Of a stretch of 8,847 bases of DNA, positions 2,983-8,847 are shown in pieces. The DNA is from a virus (lineage: Duplodnaviria; Heunggongvirae; Uroviricota; Caudoviricetes). How positions within the stretch are numbered: the first letter of the stretch is position 1; every line of letters starts with the position of its first letter. Under the pieces are notes generated by a model. It was given only the letters and a program-made list of their open reading frames with translations, was not told the origin of the DNA and did not search any database. A program made the translations under genes and the position numbers. The stretch is taken from the IMG/VR virus record IMGVR_UViG_2724679236_000017. One strand, 5' to 3'.

Positions 2983-3471
2983 ATGGCTACCAACCCAAGA
3001 GAGCACGCCCGGCGAGTGCTGGACACGTTCTGGTGCGGGCGTGGTTTCCCTGTTGATCCAGCGAAAATTGCTCACGACATGGGATTAGATGTTTTTATTA
3101 CCGATCTTCCTGGGAAAGTTTCTGGCGCACTGATTAAACAAAAAGATCAAGATCCAGCGATCTTTCTAAACAGTGATGACAACAAAGTTCGTCAACGTTT
3201 TTCATGTGGGCATGAGTTGGGGCATTACATCGCCCGGCAAGCATCGCATAGCGATGAATATGAGTACGTTGATTTACGTGGCGAAACCGCAAGCGCCGGA
3301 ACGCATCCTGATGAAATTTTTGCGAACAAGTTCGCAGCAGAACTTCTGATGCCGGTTGATGAGGTCAGAAAACTGCACGCTGACGGCCAGCCAAGTTATA
3401 TAATGGCGCATTATTTTGGCGTATCTGACGATGCGATGACTTATCGTTTAAAGAACTTGAGGTTGGGGTAA
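2983..3471 (+). CDS. ImmA/IrrE-family (peptidase M78-like) zinc metallopeptidase
   Basis: 162-aa ORF with GGAGG Shine-Dalgarno 4 nt upstream. HEXXH zinc-binding motif (GHELGHY) is encoded at 3211-3225, followed by the ELLMP segment typical of the ImmA/IrrE fold. Protein size is typical of stand-alone ImmA-type peptidase domains. Confidence 0.85.
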   Translation: MATNPREHARRVLDTFWCGRGFPVDPAKIAHDMGLDVFITDLPGKVSGALIKQKDQDPAIFLNSDDNKVRQRFSCGHELGHYIARQASHSDEYEYVDLRGETASAGTHPDEIFANKFAAELLMPVDEVRKLHADGQPSYIMAHYFGVSDDAMTYRLKNLRLG

Positions 3472-3480
3472 CGCTTTAAA

Positions 3481-4086
3481 ATGCCATCGGATGACGATTT
3501 TAACAGCCGTTTCAAACAGGAAGTAGCACGCCGACTGAAGGATTCCCTCAACCTACACCGTCAGTTAGCAGAAGAGGTTGAACCGGAGGATGATGAAACT
3601 CCGGTTCAGTCTCCTGACGAAGCTTCACCTCAGCCAAAGATTTCGCACGCCCCCAAAAAAACGGCTGTCCGTATTCGCGGAATAGCCAGAAAAAGAGCTG
3701 CCGAAGCTCGCAAAATGGCTGTAGCTGCGTCTAGCAAAAGAACTCCAACTGCTACACCCTCTCAACAAGTCACCCGTACTGAGAGTAAAATATTGACCGA
3801 GTTCACATCTGTGAAACAGGTGAATTCACTTGATACCGAGCATGAGCGCAAACAACTCAACAACAAAGATTTTGAAGCAGAAATCGCTCTAAAAAAACGA
3901 TACGGGAAATGGTTCCTGATTATCCTTGCTTGCCAACTTCTGATAATGAATGGTGTATTTATTGCCGACGGCGCAGGTAAGCTGGAATTTGAGGATTTAA
4001 CACTACAGTTGTACATGGGCGGTACTTTGACAGAGGTATTCGGCCTCGTGCTGGTCGTGACAAAATACCTTTTTAAACGCAAGTAA
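3481..4086 (+). CDS. membrane-anchored protein with charged, low-complexity N-terminal region and two C-terminal TM helices
   Basis: 201-aa ORF starting 9 nt after the peptidase stop (operon arrangement). The N-terminal ~130 aa are rich in K/R/E/P/S/T and look disordered. The C-terminus carries two hydrophobic helices (WFLIILACQLLIMNGVFIA and TEVFGLVLVVTKYLF). No recognised family. Confidence 0.7.
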   Translation: MPSDDDFNSRFKQEVARRLKDSLNLHRQLAEEVEPEDDETPVQSPDEASPQPKISHAPKKTAVRIRGIARKRAAEARKMAVAASSKRTPTATPSQQVTRTESKILTEFTSVKQVNSLDTEHERKQLNNKDFEAEIALKKRYGKWFLIILACQLLIMNGVFIADGAGKLEFEDLTLQLYMGGTLTEVFGLVLVVTKYLFKRK

Positions 4087-4335
4087 CTCTCTCAGTCCAA
4101 CAGTCTTTCGAAGGCCTTGATCAAAGGGCCTTGATAAATTAGCAGTGCGTTGAAAACAGATAGTTATTCCCATCAGTTCCAACGTAATACACATCAAAAA
4201 AATCACCATTCTTTTGCTCTAACGTCAACACCTACTCTTAAAAAAATAATTCTCCAAGAATGAGAAAGTTATTGTGTGTATTAGATAAGATATGAGCTGA
4301 CACATCTATGGCGTGGAGCCAAATTTAATATGACA

Positions 4336-4359
4336 GTCCGCTCTGTGCCAGGAGCGGAC
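4336..4359. repeat. half copy (second hairpin only) of the conserved double-hairpin intergenic element
   Basis: GTCCGCTC-TGTGCCAG-GAGCGGAC is a perfect 8-bp stem with the same GTGCCA loop as the second hairpin of copies B, C and D. The upstream hairpin and linker are absent. Confidence 0.6.
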
Positions 4360-4660
4360 GTTGTAAAGTTTATTTGGAGAATAATGGTTAGAAGAACTAT
4401 GTAGATCATAGCCCTCTAAAGTCAGTAGTCTTACACCATATAAATGGTCATTTAGAGATAGTACACCACCTACAAAAAACGAGATAAAGCGTGCAAGCGG
4501 CATGAAGATACATAACTGCACTTGATGTTAGGATGAATACTGACACTCGCTTTGTAAAGATAAAGATGATCTTGAGGATGATTAGTTTATTAATTATCTC
4601 CAATGTTTGTTATTTTGTGATGATAAAGATTCTCTGGATTAATAGGATGGTAATTCAATT

Positions 4661-4688
4661 AAAAGAGACCTTATAGAAGGCCTCTTTT
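4661..4688 (-). terminator. intrinsic terminator for the 4713..5090 gene (possibly bidirectional)
   Basis: On the minus-strand RNA the stem GAGGCC/GGUCUC (one G/U pair) has loop UUCUAUAA and is followed by UUUUAAUUGAAUU, about 25 nt downstream of the stop at 4713. The plus strand forms the same stem followed by TTTT. Confidence 0.5.
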
Positions 4689-4712
4689 AAGTTATGAGAG
4701 CTGATTTTATAT

Positions 4713-5090
4713 TCAATAGAGTATTCTCATCGAAGAAATAACCTCATAAAATGTAAAGACAGCCAGCAAAAAAATACAGATAAAGATAAGGGAAATAGCA
4801 CACTTAACTAAGGACTGAATCCCCCGAGGTGTTCCCCATGGTTTAGACATTTGGGTTATAACCCAAATAAATAAGGCCATAAAACAGCAAACACCAGCCA
4901 ATCCGAGCAGAGATATTATGACAACTCCAAATAGATTTCCAACATCTAGTTTATCTGTTTTTGCAACCAGGGTTAACAAACCAGCAATAATAGTTGCTAT
5001 CGATATTCCCGCAATGGTTGTGAGATCAGCGATAACAGCCAGTTTTTCTTTAGTATTTCCTTGAGTAAAAACCTCTAAAATTGATTTCAT
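4713..5090 (-). CDS. small integral membrane protein (125 aa, about 3 TM helices)
   Basis: AGGTGG Shine-Dalgarno 9 nt upstream of the ATG on the minus strand. Three long hydrophobic segments. A perfect TATAAT (reverse complement of 5113-5118) lies upstream as a candidate -10. The gene has its own terminator. No recognised family. Confidence 0.65.
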   Translation of the reverse strand: MKSILEVFTQGNTKEKLAVIADLTTIAGISIATIIAGLLTLVAKTDKLDVGNLFGVVIISLLGLAGVCCFMALFIWVITQMSKPWGTPRGIQSLVKCAISLIFICIFLLAVFTFYEVISSMRILY

Positions 5091-5203
5091 GGAAAATAAC
5101 CACCTACTATCGATTATATTCAGGAACTTTTTATCATAACGATATCAGATAGATAAGGATATTGTAATATTTTGGATGATTTAAACTTACTTTTGTAACT
5201 CTA

Positions 5204-5271
5204 ATGTCCACTTTTCGCTCACAGCGGACCTTTAGCTCAGTTACCTCGTCCGCTTTGTGCCAGGAGCGGAC
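5204..5271. repeat. conserved double-hairpin intergenic element, copy B (68 bp)
   Basis: ATGTCCACTTTTCGCTCACAGCGGACCTTTAGCTCAGTTACCTCGTCCGCTTTGTGCCAGGAGCGGAC. About 84 percent identical to copy C by hand count. Two hairpins built on GTCCGCT/AGCGGAC arms. Lies between divergent gene starts. Confidence 0.7.
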
Positions 5272-5532
5272 GCTAACCTGATTGACGGGAAATCATATTA
5301 AGTCGGCATAAAAAATTAGAATATCTTTAGTGACTATTACTAATGTGTGTGTATAACTTATGCCTAATTTATCGCTCCGGCTGAGGGAATCTTGCCTCCG
5401 CTGTCACTTTTAGGTATGTTAACAACTATTTTTACAGTGGTTCCGAGTTATGCTATCTAACAGATTACTTGAACCGAGTCCGTTTATCAGTATGGCGTTT
5501 TATATGCTCAGAGTCCATCCAAGGAGTGACTT

Positions 5533-6009
5533 TTGAAATTTGAACAAATCTATAAAAATATTACTGGCCTTAGCTGTCCCATATTCGGGATTCAGTGGAA
5601 TGCTCCAATAATAGAAACTAACGAAGCGAAGAAGATCGTCATTTTTCTTGAGGACAAGCGCGTTCTTTTCAATCCTGTCGACATGGAGGGTGCTAGTCAT
5701 TGCACTTCGAGTGTTATCAACATTAGATCTGAATTGACTAAAGTCCTACAAGGTTTGCCGAGCGATTCACATTTAGCAAAACAATTAAGGAAAATGAGAA
5801 AAGCATGCCAAGAATTCTGTGACAGCGTTGGCTCCCCTCACTTTATCCAACTTGATCATCCTGTTCAAATATCCATACTTGAGCGAGCCCTTTTTAAACT
5901 GCGACAAAAGTGTGGTAACTCTCTGGCAGAAATAGCGGTTACCTATGGTCTTGATGTTGATGACGGATTGGCCAGTATTATCCCTTTTAATAATCCCAGT
6001 AACATATAG
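5533..6009 (+). CDS. hypothetical protein (158 aa), TTG start
   Basis: Consensus AAGGAG Shine-Dalgarno at 5521-5526, 6 nt before the TTG at 5533. No TM segments and no recognised motif. The gene sits alone between two repeat copies. Confidence 0.6.
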   Translation: MKFEQIYKNITGLSCPIFGIQWNAPIIETNEAKKIVIFLEDKRVLFNPVDMEGASHCTSSVINIRSELTKVLQGLPSDSHLAKQLRKMRKACQEFCDSVGSPHFIQLDHPVQISILERALFKLRQKCGNSLAEIAVTYGLDVDDGLASIIPFNNPSNI

Positions 6010-6102
6010 CAATGACTATGAATTTGCTTGCTGGATTAATTATCATGCAACCGACAGTTTTGGGTCGGAAGCGGTTAGCAAATTAGTCATTAGTGAGTCG
6101 TT

Positions 6103-6170
6103 ATGTCCGTTCATCGCTCACAGCGGACCTTCAGCTCAGGTAACTTGTCCGCTTCGTGCCAAAAGCGGAC
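6103..6170. repeat. conserved double-hairpin intergenic element, copy C (68 bp)
   Basis: ATGTCCGTTCATCGCTCACAGCGGACCTTCAGCTCAGGTAACTTGTCCGCTTCGTGCCAAAAGCGGAC. Lies between convergent gene ends (6009 plus, 6290 minus). Confidence 0.7.
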
Positions 6171-6232
6171 ATGTCAAAGCGCAGAGTGAATGGCTAAGTC
6201 TAGCTCATTAAAAATGTTCACTTCATGAAAAT

Positions 6233-6268
6233 GGCTGCAGCAAGAATCTATCTCACTGCGGCCTCTTT
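6233..6268. terminator. bidirectional intrinsic terminator between convergent genes
   Basis: GGCTGCAG-N15-CTGCGGCC stem (8 bp with one G/U pair on plus, one C/A mismatch on minus). Followed by TCTTTACAAT on the plus strand and AUUUUCAU on the minus strand, about 25 nt beyond the stop of the 6290..7045 gene. Confidence 0.45.
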
Positions 6269-6289
6269 ACAATAACGAAATTTTGCAAG

Positions 6290-7045
6290 CTATTCCTTGG
6301 CCTCTTTATTCTTCTCGCCATCGCCAATATAAATAAGATAGTCGTTTAAGGATATCCTTCCGGAGGGACCGGTCCATGTTATCAATCCGTTTTCACGAAG
6401 ATTAAATAATGCTTCCATGAACTCATTATCGTTAAAAGAATGATCTTCTGAGAACAGAATGTTCATTTTTCTCAATAGTTCTTCCACTTTAATCTTTTCA
6501 TATCGCCTTATCAGACTTAGTGCTCTACGACGCATTAAGACTGTAGGTACTGCTTGTGAACGAATGGTTTTTTGTATTCCACTATCAAGAACTTTCTTAA
6601 TCTTACTCTCTAATTCTTTGATTTTAGTTTCATTATCTCCATTGGACTTAAGCTTTTCATCAACGATACAAATAATCTCCTGACTAATGCGGTTCTTGAG
6701 TTTGTTTATTTTTTCTTCATTGTTGAGGATCTCATCAGAGCTTCCTGCATGGGGTTTTTTCCATATGTGCTGACGCATATCCGTTACCGTATCTCTCATC
6801 ATAGAGAATGTATCTGAATATAACTTGTCAAATATTTTTTCCAGCCGTTCGACACTTGCCTGGATGTCTTTTGCTGCTTTAGTTGTCTCTTTAGAAGCCT
6901 CATTCGACATTTTATAAAAAACAAAAGAAAGCCAAATAGCCCCAATGGCGAGTACTAATGAGGCTATTGTGGCAATAAAACCTATTATTGTTATTGCTGT
7001 ATCTAATGTACCTGCTGCATCTGTGACTACTGTTTCTGCTGCCAT
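6290..7045 (-). CDS. membrane-anchored protein with N-terminal TM segment and coiled-coil-like region (251 aa)
   Basis: GAGGA Shine-Dalgarno 3-4 nt upstream of the ATG. N-terminal hydrophobic stretch LDTAITIIGFIATIASLVLAIGAIWLSFVFY. A K/E-rich heptad-like middle (KINKLKNRISQEI..., KIKELESKIKKVL). C-terminal ~70 aa of unknown fold. No recognised family. Confidence 0.7.
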   Translation of the reverse strand: MAAETVVTDAAGTLDTAITIIGFIATIASLVLAIGAIWLSFVFYKMSNEASKETTKAAKDIQASVERLEKIFDKLYSDTFSMMRDTVTDMRQHIWKKPHAGSSDEILNNEEKINKLKNRISQEIICIVDEKLKSNGDNETKIKELESKIKKVLDSGIQKTIRSQAVPTVLMRRRALSLIRRYEKIKVEELLRKMNILFSEDHSFNDNEFMEALFNLRENGLITWTGPSGRISLNDYLIYIGDGEKNKEAKE

Positions 7046-7089
7046 ATATCCTCAATATTTAACCATACAGGGTAGCGTGTTTTAACCGC

Positions 7090-7125
7090 GGGGAAGTCGG
7101 GGTGGTGACACCCTGGCCTTACCCC
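7090..7125. other. GC-rich nested stem-loop in the putative 5' leader of the 6290..7045 gene
   Basis: GGGG-aagtcg-[GGGTG-gtga-CACCC]-tggcctta-CCCC: inner 5-bp stem with a 4-nt loop, flanked by a GGGG/CCCC outer stem. It stands out in AT-rich surroundings. A TATGAT -10 candidate (reverse complement of 7145-7150) would place it in the minus-strand leader. Confidence 0.3.
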
Positions 7126-7328
7126 AATTCCAGAGTATTTGTTTATCATACCATTGAAACTATTTAATTTTATCGAAAATTTTGTCAGAGCGTGACTGAA
7201 AAGTCTTCAGCACGTCAAGCAGATCGTCGCCGTTCAATTAGCACTGAACTTTTTCTTAGTGGGGGGCTGTGCAGTTGCGAAGTTATGCCCCAGTTCCTCA
7301 CTACATTCTAATTAAGCCGGCCAACTAA

Positions 7329-7390
7329 ATGTCCGCTCCTCGCTCACAGCGGACCTTCAGTTGTTCGTCCACTCCGTGCCAGGAGCGGAC
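7329..7390. repeat. conserved double-hairpin intergenic element, copy D (62 bp)
   Basis: ATGTCCGCTCCTCGCTCACAGCGGACCTTCAGTTGTTCGTCCACTCCGTGCCAGGAGCGGAC. The 11-bp termini ATGTCCGCTCC and GGAGCGGACAT are exact reverse complements. Lies between divergent gene starts. Confidence 0.7.
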
Positions 7391-7443
7391 ATTGATTATT
7401 CCTCTCTGTAAAAATCTTAATGCTAACTAGTGGGAACTATAAG

Positions 7444-8309
<866 letters not shown>

Positions 8310-8325
8310 CCAATATACGGCAGTA

Positions 8326-8847
8326 ATGAATATTTCGGGGATCGTGTTTGCTGCGGTCATGGTTACCATTAGTGTTCGCGTAGCAATGGAGATTGCCTAC
8401 TTATGCGTGGCCAGACAGAGTGATGTACTTTCATTGCAGAAAGACCAGCTGTTCGATTCCGGGATCTACATTCGTCAGGGAAAAACCGGCGTTAAGCAAA
8501 TCAAAGCCTGGTCGCCTCGTCTGCAGAAAGCGATAGCTCTGGCTCGTTCTCTGCCATTAAAAACGGGAATCAGTAGCCTGTTTGTGATTCATCAAACTAC
8601 CGGTGGCAAGTATACCCGTGATGGTTTTAACTCTCGTTGGCGTGATGTCAAAGCGGCAGCACAGGAAAAATATCCTCATCTGCAAATAGACTTCACATTT
8701 CATGATCTGAAAGCAAAAGGTATCTCTGATCTGGAAGGCAGCCTGGAAGAGAAGCAAGCAATTTCCGGGCATAAGAACCCACGACAGACAGCTGCCTATG
8801 ACCGAAAAGTTAAAGTAGTGCCCGTAGTTGGTGGCCAGAGAAAATGA
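8326..8847 (+). CDS. lambda-family tyrosine recombinase/integrase, C-terminal catalytic-domain fragment (5'-truncated, probable pseudogene or remnant)
   Basis: 173-aa ORF aligning by eye to the catalytic half of lambda Int: VRVAMEIA...ARQSDVL (Arg box), YIRQGKTGVK, FHDLKAKG (HxLR-like box) and GHKNPRQTAAYDRK (His and catalytic Tyr). The frame is closed upstream by TAG at 8293-8295, so the ~180-aa arm- and core-binding N-terminal domains are absent. No convincing Shine-Dalgarno. Confidence 0.75.
   Translation: MNISGIVFAAVMVTISVRVAMEIAYLCVARQSDVLSLQKDQLFDSGIYIRQGKTGVKQIKAWSPRLQKAIALARSLPLKTGISSLFVIHQTTGGKYTRDGFNSRWRDVKAAAQEKYPHLQIDFTFHDLKAKGISDLEGSLEEKQAISGHKNPRQTAAYDRKVKVVPVVGGQRK

What the first reader, a model, noticed from the sequence alone, without database searches (positions are those of the whole stretch)
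6290..7200. 251-aa membrane plus coiled-coil protein with a GC-rich structured leader
The protein combines an N-terminal membrane anchor, a long K/E-rich heptad-like region and a small C-terminal domain, an architecture seen in several abortive-infection and exclusion proteins but matching no family I recognise. Its putative leader contains a compact nested stem-loop (7090-7125) that is strikingly GC-rich against AT-rich surroundings, which suggests post-transcriptional control, for example tight repression of a toxic effector.
Basis: partly seen in the sequence, partly recalled or inferred. Interest (0 to 1): 0.45.

Follow-up and report, generated by a model that had tools for sequence, protein, structure and literature searches.

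The report
Decayed transposon passenger gene in phage hotspot
The 251-residue membrane protein is the cargo gene of a broken dif-targeting transposon, now one cassette in a prophage array of anti-phage genes, and its "structured leader" is a conserved hairpin element that also precedes unrelated defence genes.

Summary
The ORF (6290-7045, minus strand) is real. It encodes an N-out single-pass membrane protein with an ultra-conserved transmembrane/juxtamembrane helix, a variable helical stalk and a cytoplasmic winged helix. It belongs to an uncharacterised family (phrog_36054; about 690 clusters; no Pfam, NCBIfam or PADLOC hit).

The GC-rich stem-loop exists, but it is no more stable than shuffled sequence. 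Its value is comparative. It is a diverged copy of a roughly 60-nt hairpin element, absent from Rfam, found in 689 of 5426 complete E. coli genomes. That element lies between an ISKpn21-like (IS1202-family, dif-targeting) transposase gene, or an inovirus-type HTH repressor gene, and interchangeable cargo genes (Shedu, SIR2, AbiJ-like, this family).

Window 7163-7264 is the dead last 34 codons of that transposase, and 6172-6196 is the element's right inverted repeat. The whole relic sits between palindromic inverted repeats that delimit one-gene cassettes. The same cassette lies at the Z/fun locus of P2-like phages. PD-T4-3 is the next gene.

A phage-exclusion or abortive-infection role is inferred from context and architecture, not shown. 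The leader is generic, so gene-specific repression of a toxin is not supported.

The parts
6290..7045 (-). ORF, 251 aa; cargo (passenger) gene; uncharacterised family phrog_36054
6914..6997 (-). codons 17-44: single transmembrane helix (predicted N-out/C-in)
   Evidence: near-invariant across phyla
6761..6913 (-). codons 45-95: ultra-conserved juxtamembrane helix (VERLExLFDKLYSDTFSMMKDTVTDMRxHIW)
   Evidence: most of the 26 invariant columns among 38 sequences fall here; the family extends to Archaea
6326..6544 (-). codons 168-240: C-terminal winged-helix domain, variable in sequence
   Evidence: weak MCM4_WHD hit; RPA32 WH, MarR
7050..7054 (-). Shine-Dalgarno GAGGA, conserved in homologues
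   Evidence: fold; blastn to the canonical copy in L185, 76% over 169 nt, E 4e-29; canonical-only HMM: best hit in the window, E 0.23; intermediates 1e-5 to 1e-7
7145..7153 (-). TGgTATGAT, an extended -10-like motif just after the dead transposase stop codon; candidate promoter (inferred)
   Evidence: conserved as TCAATG(G/A)TAT(G/T)AT in relatives
7163..7264 (-). decayed last 34 codons of an IS1202-family (ISNCY/ISKpn21-like) transposase gene with two in-frame stops; its TAG stop is at 7160-7162
   Evidence: tblastn 59% identity, E 1e-6
6172..6196 (-). right terminal inverted repeat of the transporter IS (...GCTTTGACA-3')
   Evidence: by my count 20/25 identical to the right repeat of the intact copies in L070, L347 and L348
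6225..6263 (-). terminator-like hairpin (6233-6263) followed by AUUUUCAU; the same arrangement occurs in the intact element L185
7329..7394 (.). cassette junction: palindrome B (7331-7354), 12-nt spacer, palindrome A (7367-7390)
   Evidence: homology to P2 phages ends at 7354
6103..6174 (.). cassette junction: palindrome B (6105-6128), spacer, palindrome A (6147-6170)
   Evidence: homology to P2 phages starts at 6181, and the cassette 1+2 match ends at 6134
4336..6009 (.). two sister cassettes: A (4336-4359), 125-aa membrane protein (4713-5090, minus), junction 5204-5275, DUF6650 protein (5533-6009, plus)
7476..8309 (+). neighbouring gene: PD-T4-3 (GIY-YIG) anti-phage protein
   Evidence: PADLOC 4.7e-137

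Best explanation
The region is a self-contained accessory-gene module with three nested layers.

(1) Shown: it is a relic of a transporter insertion sequence. Intact relatives have the order IRL, 466-aa IS1202-family transposase, hairpin leader, one cargo gene, terminator, IRR. They have 5-bp target duplications and sit 5 bp from the XerC arm of a dif or pdif-like site. The window keeps the last 34 transposase codons (dead), the leader, the cargo gene, the terminator and the IRR.

(2) Shown: this relic is one cassette in an array whose cassettes are separated by paired 24-nt palindromes (A and B, near reverse complements of each other). The same cassette, with homology ending at those palindromes, occupies the Z/fun locus between tail genes G and FI of P2-like phages. 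Here the array lies in a lambdoid prophage hotspot next to PD-T4-3.

(3) Shown: the 'GC-rich stem-loop' is a diverged copy of a roughly 60-nt element. The canonical form has three hairpins: H1 covaries, H2 is invariant in sequence, and H3 has constant stems. The element precedes many unrelated cargo genes, including Shedu, SIR2 and AbiJ-like genes.

Inferred: the protein is a single-gene phage-exclusion or abortive-infection factor. It is tethered to the inner membrane with its stalk and winged helix in the cytoplasm. The variable winged helix would recognise an incoming nucleic acid or phage protein at the membrane. The ultra-conserved transmembrane/juxtamembrane helix would be the constant output module, acting by oligomerisation or by engaging a conserved membrane target.

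Inferred: the leader acts in cis on the mRNA as a generic expression adaptor. It would give each swapped-in cargo a defined, protected 5' end or insulate it from upstream transcription. It is not a gene-specific switch.
For: Layer 1. tblastn and blastn of the L185 transposase and element against the window. IRL and IRR with matching AAGTT duplications in L185, and the same ends in L070, L347 and L348 around different cargos. dif or pdif-like sites adjacent to the left ends, including a perfect E. coli dif in L348. The literature describes tISKpn21: a 467-aa transposase, a 5-bp duplication, an unrelated passenger gene, and insertion 5 bp from the XerC arm.

Layer 2. Repeats. P2 context. Lambdoid context. 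Census of 78 A..B cassettes with 40 cargo families in either orientation, including DarT, RT_UG17, PDC-S33 and PDC-S35. PMC8987985, citing Nilsson 2004, states that fun is flanked by inverted repeats.

Layer 3. Conserved leader across homologues of 55-97% protein identity. Fifty further loci found by pattern search, with 34 distinct contexts. H1 covariation: 6 of 7 pairs change on both sides, and 0 of 500 shuffles reach the score. Present in 689 of 5426 E. coli genomes. No Rfam match. Cargo identities.

Protein.. Some homologues carry an extra OST-HTH (PF12872) domain at the C-terminus. The gene is always stand-alone and mostly on mobile elements.
Against: There is no functional evidence for defence, toxicity or nucleic-acid binding. 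PADLOC, Pfam and NCBIfam give nothing.

Some family members sit among housekeeping genes with no obvious mobile element: Limnohabitans, Methanoregula and Cronobacter. An almost invariant N-terminal half is unusual for fast-evolving defence proteins.

The window's leader copy is weakly similar to the canonical form on its own (E 0.23). It lacks the 5' arm of H1, and its fold is not more stable than shuffles. H2 and H3 show no covariation. RNAalifold finds only a weak consensus. G.U versus A.C counts do not identify the folded strand, so a DNA-level role is not excluded.

[quoted passage not shown] The conserved -10-like motif lies in the transposase-leader spacer of the element, so it may be conserved for reasons other than promoter activity.
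Confidence: 0.55

Rival explanations
1. The protein is a pure superinfection-exclusion factor. It sits at the inner membrane and blocks genome entry of other phages, without sensing and without cell death. It would act like P2 Fun(Z) at the same locus, HK97 gp15 or P22 SieA.
For: It lies at the Z/fun position of P2 phages. It has a single-pass membrane anchor. In inovirus-type regions the cargo follows the HTH repressor gene and so would be expressed in lysogens. The conserved N-terminal half could reflect binding to a conserved host membrane component.
Against: The family occurs in Archaea, Actinomycetota and Bacteroidota, where no common entry machinery exists. A cytoplasmic winged helix, sometimes with an OST-HTH domain, is not needed for an entry block.
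Confidence: 0.2
2. The gene is not a defence gene. It serves the mobile element itself, for example by tethering element or chromosomal DNA near the membrane or septum where XerCD/FtsK act at dif, or by regulating the element.
For: It is a recurrent passenger of dif-targeting IS elements and a neighbour of dif-integrating inoviruses. Membrane anchor plus winged helix fits membrane tethering of DNA. Sequence conservation is high.
Against: The same slot holds Shedu, SIR2 and AbiJ-like genes, so the slot is not dedicated to a transposition function. The gene also occurs in P2, between terminase genes, and in chromosomal sites far from dif.
Confidence: 0.15
3. The conserved 'leader' works at the DNA level, not as RNA. 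It could be a transposase or repressor binding site, or a recombination breakpoint that lets cargo genes be exchanged between elements.
For: Sequence similarity between elements carrying different cargos ends right after H3. H2 is invariant in sequence rather than covarying. The element lies immediately after the transposase or repressor stop codon. Wobble statistics do not favour one strand.
Against: H1 keeps complementarity through at least eight different arm sequences, mostly with GNRA-type GAAA loops. That pattern is typical of RNA hairpins and not of a protein operator. The element always lies on the sense strand upstream of the cargo.
Confidence: 0.3
4. In this window the stem-loop is only a decaying relic with no present function. 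Expression comes from a promoter nearer the gene.
For: The window copy is the most diverged, lacks the H1 5' arm and has no stability excess. The unit is already a degraded IS.
Against: Differences between the window copy and the P2-phage copies (L001, L002) lie either in the apical loop or at positions where the predicted pairing is kept. The C. koseri copy (L063) keeps an inner 5-bp stem through changes on both arms: GGGUG/CACCC becomes GGCUG/CAGCC.
Confidence: 0.15

Closest known systems
tISKpn21 and related transporter IS of the IS1202 family (ISAba32/ISAjo2 subgroup)
   Same: Intact relatives (L185, L070, L347, L348) have a transposase of about 466 aa, ends reading 5'-TGT...ACA-3', and a 5-bp target duplication. 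Their left end lies 5 bp from the XerC arm of a dif-like site. They carry one unrelated passenger gene.
   Different: The window copy has lost the transposase and a detectable left end. The passenger here is about 250 aa, whereas my arithmetic from the published 2278-bp length of ISKpn21 suggests about 170 aa for its passenger. That passengers are interchangeable and include recognised defence genes, and that a conserved hairpin element separates transposase and passenger, is not stated in the two papers I could read.
P2 Z/fun locus (foreign genes flanked by inverted repeats; Nilsson et al. 2004)
   Same: The same cassette lies between G and FI in P2_2H4, phage 9W and E. coli P2 prophages. It is bounded by the A and B inverted repeats. 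Cargo differs between phages.
   Different: In the window the cassettes form a three-unit array in a lambdoid prophage, not in P2. I could not read the 2004 paper, so whether arrays and non-P2 hosts were described is unknown to me. The responsible recombination mechanism is not identified.
AbiP (Lactococcus) and PdpSau (S. aureus prophage)
   Same: Single-gene, mobile-element-borne proteins of similar size. Each has one N-terminal transmembrane helix and a cytoplasmic nucleic-acid-binding domain, and each causes abortive infection.
   Different: Their cytoplasmic domain is described as OB-fold-like, whereas here it is a winged helix. Sequence homology was not tested because I had no AbiP sequence. 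No phenotype is known for this family.
Integron gene cassettes and Acinetobacter pdif modules
   Same: Promoterless or self-contained single-gene units are delimited by short structured or palindromic repeats and shuffled between replicons. dif-like sites and IS1202-family elements are involved in the relatives.
   Different: A/B palindromes do not resemble attC or the 11-6-11 dif layout. Cargo orientation is random, 42 versus 36. No IntI-type integrase was identified, and no dif-like site lies in the window.

Membership tests
IS1202-family transporter IS (ISKpn21-like) | DDE transposase of 400-500 aa of this family | tested here: not met
   Only the last 34 codons remain, with two stop codons. 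The feature is met in relatives L185, L070, L347 and L348, some of which are pseudogenes. The window holds a relic, not a member.
IS1202-family transporter IS (ISKpn21-like) | terminal inverted repeats 5'-TGT...ACA-3' with a 5-bp target duplication | tested here: inconclusive
   The right repeat is present at 6172-6196. The left repeat was not detected. L185 has both ends with an AAGTT duplication.
IS1202-family transporter IS (ISKpn21-like) | insertion 5 bp from the XerC arm of a dif/xrs site | tested here: not met
   No dif-like site in the window. The feature is met in L185, L070, L347 and L348.
P2 Z/fun-type inverted-repeat-flanked cassette | variable cargo bounded by conserved inverted repeats, with homology between elements ending at the repeats | tested here: met
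P2 Z/fun-type inverted-repeat-flanked cassette | location between P2 tail genes G and FI | tested here: not met
   The window array is in a lambdoid prophage. Only about 58 nt of P2-like sequence from downstream of G remain, at 4278-4335. The feature is met for the identical cassette in L001 and L002.
P2 Z/fun-type inverted-repeat-flanked cassette | movement by site-specific recombination | not testable with these tools
   No recombinase is consistently adjacent. The palindrome stems show no compensatory changes.
Known anti-phage defence families (PADLOC 2.0) | profile match | tested here: not met
   Zero hits for the 251-aa protein. The neighbour is PD-T4-3.
AbiP / PdpSau-like membrane-anchored Abi proteins | single N-terminal transmembrane helix with a cytoplasmic remainder | tested here: met
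   (prediction only)
AbiP / PdpSau-like membrane-anchored Abi proteins | OB-like nucleic-acid-binding domain; sequence or structure homology to AbiP | tested here: not met
   The C-terminal domain is a winged helix. Direct comparison with AbiP was not done because no sequence was available.
AbiP / PdpSau-like membrane-anchored Abi proteins | abortive-infection phenotype | not testable with these tools
   Requires phage challenge assays.
Described RNA families (Rfam 15) | covariance-model match to the leader | tested here: not met
   No hit in the window at E<=1. No hit on canonical copies.
Translational riboswitch / RNA thermometer type leader | structure sequesters the Shine-Dalgarno sequence or start codon | tested here: not met
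   The conserved element ends 25-90 nt before variable, non-conserved spacers. In the window it ends about 30 nt before the SD.
Coiled-coil protein | continuous heptad periodicity | tested here: inconclusive
   Long helices are predicted, but there is no dominant a/d register. No dedicated predictor was available.

The most novel reading that the evidence does not exclude
The roughly 60-nt hairpin element is an undescribed cis-acting RNA that defines a common 'expression socket' for swappable single-gene defence cargos. The socket would be shared by dif-targeting ISKpn21-like transporter IS, UPphi/CUS-type inovirus prophages, IncF-type plasmids and, as relics, phage hotspot cassettes. If so, transporter IS aimed at dif/pdif sites would be a vehicle that carries defence genes between otherwise unrelated mobile elements. 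The 251-aa family would be a new membrane-tethered winged-helix immune protein.
Probability: 0.3. Interest if true: 0.8.

Novelty: new variant of a known kind. Interest (0 to 1): 0.55.

Why it matters
[quoted passage not shown] This locus shows a concrete trace of one route. A dif-targeting transporter IS carrying a single cargo gene has decayed inside a repeat-delimited phage cassette, and that cassette is itself shared between P2-like and lambdoid prophages.

The locus also flags two untested objects that are cheap to test. One is a widespread, uniform membrane-plus-winged-helix protein family found in defence neighbourhoods. The other is a conserved hairpin element, present in about 13% of complete E. 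coli genomes, that sits in front of Shedu, SIR2 and AbiJ-like genes.

Tried and rejected
Searches that gave no family for the protein: Pfam, NCBIfam and PADLOC. PDB sequence and Foldseek searches recovered only generic winged-helix matches at weak E-values.

Rfam found nothing on the window or on canonical leaders; one sub-threshold ar35 hit lay elsewhere.

Thermodynamic stability of the leader is not significant.

RNAalifold on 12 homologous leaders gave a weak consensus of -2.5 kcal/mol. A column-wise pair count for the six window-type sequences was abandoned because the inner stem shifts register.

Using G.U versus A.C pairs to decide which strand folds gave 11 versus 8, which is uninformative.

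I tested whether the leader is general to the A/B cassettes. It is not: among A/B arrays, only those carrying this gene have it, and the other two window cassettes lack it by inspection.

I tested whether the A/B palindromes are selected hairpins. There are no compensatory changes, only mismatches. They are also not terminator-like.

I looked for a dif-like site in the window and found none.

I considered whether the 15-mer and 16-mer database scans were chance. About a third of the A/B hits (33 of 105) and about two thirds of the leader hits (113 of 163) lacked the extended motif and were discarded.

Nilsson et al. 2004 and Odegrip et al. 2006 are not held in the library. What they reported is known to me only through PMC8987985.
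Full report
OBSERVATION. The ORF at 6290-7045 on the minus strand is real. It starts at an ATG preceded by GAGGA, and close homologues share that start. Residues 17-44 form a 28-residue uncharged stretch (Kyte-Doolittle 2.4). The N-terminal tail is acidic, and four K/R residues follow the stretch. By the positive-inside rule the protein is therefore N-out/C-in (inference).

AlphaFold2 with a 38-sequence alignment gives one long helix (8-95), two further helices (105-133, 139-163), and a compact domain at 168-240 with pLDDT 76-87. Foldseek matches that domain to PerR/Fur, PadR/LmrR and cullin WHB winged helices. A PDB profile search finds the RPA32 winged helix and MarR. All these matches are weak but consistent.

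A nested GC-rich stem-loop at 7090-7125 is predicted. It is 69% G+C against about 40% around it. It is not more stable than shuffled sequence: z = -1.7, -1.4 and -0.02 depending on the frame. I found no clear heptad register.

THE PROTEIN FAMILY. No Pfam, NCBIfam or PADLOC family reaches threshold. PHROGs places the protein in phrog_36054, function unknown. The word-indexed search gave 352 relatives. An exhaustive profile search gave 691 clusters at E<=1e-3, almost all 200-260 aa long. One representative genome per species yielded 44 loci spread over Proteobacteria, Bacteroidota, Actinomycetota, Planctomycetota, Chloroflexota, Bacillota and Methanoregula.

The alignment is striking. The transmembrane helix and the next 50 residues are almost invariant, with 26 invariant columns. 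The stalk and the winged helix vary freely. Two members carry an extra C-terminal OST-HTH domain.

The gene is always solitary. I found it in these settings:
- at the P2 Z/fun locus;
- between S and V of a Hafnia P2-like phage;
- between the terminase subunit genes of Serratia prophages;
- on IncF-type plasmids;
- beside or inside filamentous-prophage regions in E. coli, Citrobacter, Pectobacterium, Alcaligenes and Providencia;
- occasionally among ordinary chromosomal genes.

It is rare in E. coli: 10 of 5426 complete genomes carry this cassette.

THE CASSETTE ARRAY. Repeat analysis shows two 24-nt palindromes. A is GTCCGCTCTGTGCCAGGAGCGGAC. B is GTCCGCTCCTCGCTCACAGCGGAC, roughly the reverse complement of A. 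They are arranged as A-cargo-B, 12-18 nt spacer, A-cargo-B, and so on: A at 4336, B+A at 5204-5275, B+A at 6103-6174, and B+A at 7329-7394.

Window 6181-7354 is 96% identical to a segment of Peduovirus P2_2H4 and phage 9W. There it is the only gene between tail-fibre assembly gene G and sheath gene FI, with degenerate A and B copies at the edges. Cassettes 1 and 2 together (window 4278-6134) occupy the same locus in other P2 prophages.

The left part of the window is a lambdoid prophage (Q, YbcO, DUF1367, ImmA). Its variable region also carries A/B-delimited genes in other strains.

A 15-mer scan of IMG/VR gave 105 loci, of which 72 carry full palindromes, often in arrays. A census of those loci together with the window and loci L001-L005 gave 78 A..B cassettes of 0.3-4 kb. 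They hold 40 cargo families in either orientation (42 versus 36). Cargos include DarT, a UG17 reverse transcriptase, PDC-S33, a TIR-like PDC-S35 and a PD-(D/E)xK protein. The gene after the last junction in the window is PD-T4-3 (4.7e-137).

The palindrome stems vary only by mismatches and never by compensatory changes. I therefore read them as conserved inverted-repeat sites rather than selected hairpins.

[quoted passage not shown] 2004. I could not read the original. The 2026 survey of P2/P4 hotspots does not mention these repeats and calls the exchange mechanism unresolved.

THE LEADER. The 150 nt upstream of the start codon are conserved in homologues from Citrobacter, Hafnia, Serratia, Buttiauxella, Cronobacter, Klebsiella and Enterobacter plasmids, E. 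coli E1 and Pectobacterium, down to 55% protein identity. Each version folds into a nested hairpin whose apical region contains GUGUCAC.

The canonical form is ACCGTGG-GAAA-CCACGGT (H1), TAAA, GTTCGGG-TGTCACAGAAC-CCCGAAC (H2), CCGC-TTC-GCGG (H3); the last C of H2 doubles as the first C of H3.

A pattern for H2 recovered 163 matches in metagenome and viral contigs. Fifty of them carry the extended motif, in 34 distinct contexts. An HMM search of all held sequence gave 58 distinct versions in 92 loci.

On a 41-sequence alignment, H1 changes on both sides in 6 of 7 pairs, and no shuffle of 500 reaches the observed covariation. At least eight different arm sequences keep complementarity, mostly with GAAA loops. 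H2 is invariant in sequence. H3 has constant stems and variable loops. No Rfam family matches.

The ORFs that follow the element are unrelated to one another. They include Shedu SduA (2e-102), a SIR2/PDC-S25 protein, AbiJ_NTD4+DUF7014 proteins, several small membrane proteins, and this family. The element occurs in 689 of 5426 complete E. coli genomes, at 429 plasmid and 361 chromosomal places. The spacer between H3 and the start codon varies in length and sequence, so the element does not mask the ribosome-binding site.

WHAT CARRIES THE LEADER. In an 8-kb inovirus-type region (L315) the order is HTH_3 repressor gene, leader, cargo. This block is divergent from the G2P-to-G4P genes. That agrees with the reverse-oriented accessory ORFs next to dif described for UPphi, CUSphi and Ypfphi.

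On plasmids and chromosomes the leader directly follows an ISNCY/IS1202-family transposase gene. These units have:
- a left end TGTAGGGGCTCAATG... lying 5 bp from the XerC arm of a dif or pdif-like site, a perfect E. coli dif in L348;
- a right inverted repeat ...GAGCTTTGACA downstream of the cargo gene;
- in L185, matching AAGTT duplications on both sides.

This is the published behaviour of tISKpn21: a 467-aa transposase, a 5-bp duplication, an unrelated 'hypothetical' passenger, and targeting of XerCD sites. L185 and L070 carry this protein family as passenger. L347 carries an AbiJ-like gene and L348 a SIR2 gene.

THE WINDOW COPY. tblastn of the L185 transposase finds its last 34 residues at window 7264-7163, at 59% identity with two in-frame stops. 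The TAG stop is at 7160-7162. blastn aligns 169 nt across the transposase end and the leader at 76% (E 4e-29), and 625 nt in all at 72%.

Downstream of the ORF, the terminator-like hairpin, the subterminal repeat and the terminal repeat of the element are retained (6172-6263). They end one base from palindrome A. No left end was detected.

A canonical-only HMM places its best window hit exactly at 7082-7130, but weakly (E 0.23). Intermediates score 1e-5 to 1e-7. Homology therefore rests on synteny together with these intermediates.

MECHANISM. The three-layer anatomy is shown. The rest is inferred.

The protein most likely acts as a single-gene exclusion or abortive-infection factor. The variable cytoplasmic winged helix, sometimes with OST-HTH, looks like a recognition module. 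The invariant transmembrane/juxtamembrane helix looks like a constant output module. The closest functional analogues are AbiP and PdpSau: single-pass membrane anchors with a cytoplasmic nucleic-acid-binding domain on mobile elements. Their domain is OB-like, and homology was not tested.

The leader most likely acts on the mRNA as a generic adaptor for swapped-in cargos. A DNA-level role remains open.

I put the overall reading at 0.55. The anatomy deserves about 0.9, the defence role about 0.5, and the specific mechanism about 0.3.

VERDICT. The object is a new variant of known kinds: a transporter-IS passenger and a Z/fun-type cassette. It carries two untested novelties, the protein family and the hairpin element.

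Noticed in passing
window 4336-7394; loci L003, L004, L005, L072-L176: Arrays of one-gene cassettes are separated by paired 24-nt palindromes A and B (near reverse complements). They are shared between the P2 Z/fun locus and a lambdoid prophage hotspot. I counted 78 cassettes with 40 cargo families, many of them defence genes, in random orientation. The stems show no compensatory changes.
   Followed up: partly
window 7476-8309 (+): This 277-aa GIY-YIG protein is PD-T4-3 (PADLOC 4.7e-137). It follows the last B+A junction and is not followed by another palindrome.
   Followed up: partly
window 8326-8847 (+): A tyrosine-recombinase ORF holds only the C-terminal catalytic domain (Pfam positions 22-167 of 172). 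It starts 17 nt after PD-T4-3 and looks like a truncated integrase. In E. coli E24377A an HNH gene occupies the corresponding position after PD-T4-3.
   Followed up: no
window 4278-4335: About 58 nt left of the first palindrome match the sequence just downstream of tail gene G in P2-like and Yersinia P2-like phages. The array in this lambdoid prophage therefore seems to have been imported from a P2 Z/fun locus together with a piece of its flank.
   Followed up: partly
window 2983-4086 (+): An ImmA/IrrE (M78) peptidase gene matches PADLOC capP (2.4e-25). It is followed after 9 nt by a 201-aa protein with a C-terminal hydrophobic region (phrog_5346). The pair is conserved in more than 400 E. coli genomes and may be a further two-gene accessory system.
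   Followed up: no
L185 1363-3844; L070 3273-5863 and 5869-8531; L347 2374-5174; L348 2805-5566: These are ISKpn21-like transporter IS with different passengers (this family, an AbiJ-like STM4504 protein, SIR2) but near-identical ends and leader. Each lies next to a dif or pdif-like site. L070 has two in tandem, the second without a called transposase but with its own leader copy at about 7200.
   Followed up: partly
PMC10132070 Table 8 versus window 6101-6111 and 7326-7340: One published ISKpn65 insertion (MK552108) lists TTATGTCCGCT as its 'XerD-side' flank. That string matches the outer edge of the B palindrome here: TTATGTCCGTT at 6101 and AAATGTCCGCT at 7328. It hints that IS1202-family elements may sometimes land next to A/B palindromes.
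   Followed up: no
L242 2152 and 10706: One metagenomic contig carries two canonical leader copies about 8.5 kb apart with identical upstream sequence. One precedes a member of this protein family and the other an AbiJ-like gene, as expected for tandem or duplicated elements with swapped cargo.
   Followed up: no
L274 about 2144: The H2 core is followed by a tandem run of CCCCGAA repeats. This hit to the leader HMM was excluded as an oddity.
   Followed up: no
L177 and L148 (IMGVR_UViG_2740892219_000010, 79 kb): L177 encodes a protein 100% identical to the window's. L148 has nearly the same palindrome spacing as the window, though its first cassette is 11 nt longer. This contig is probably the source of the window.
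   Followed up: partly
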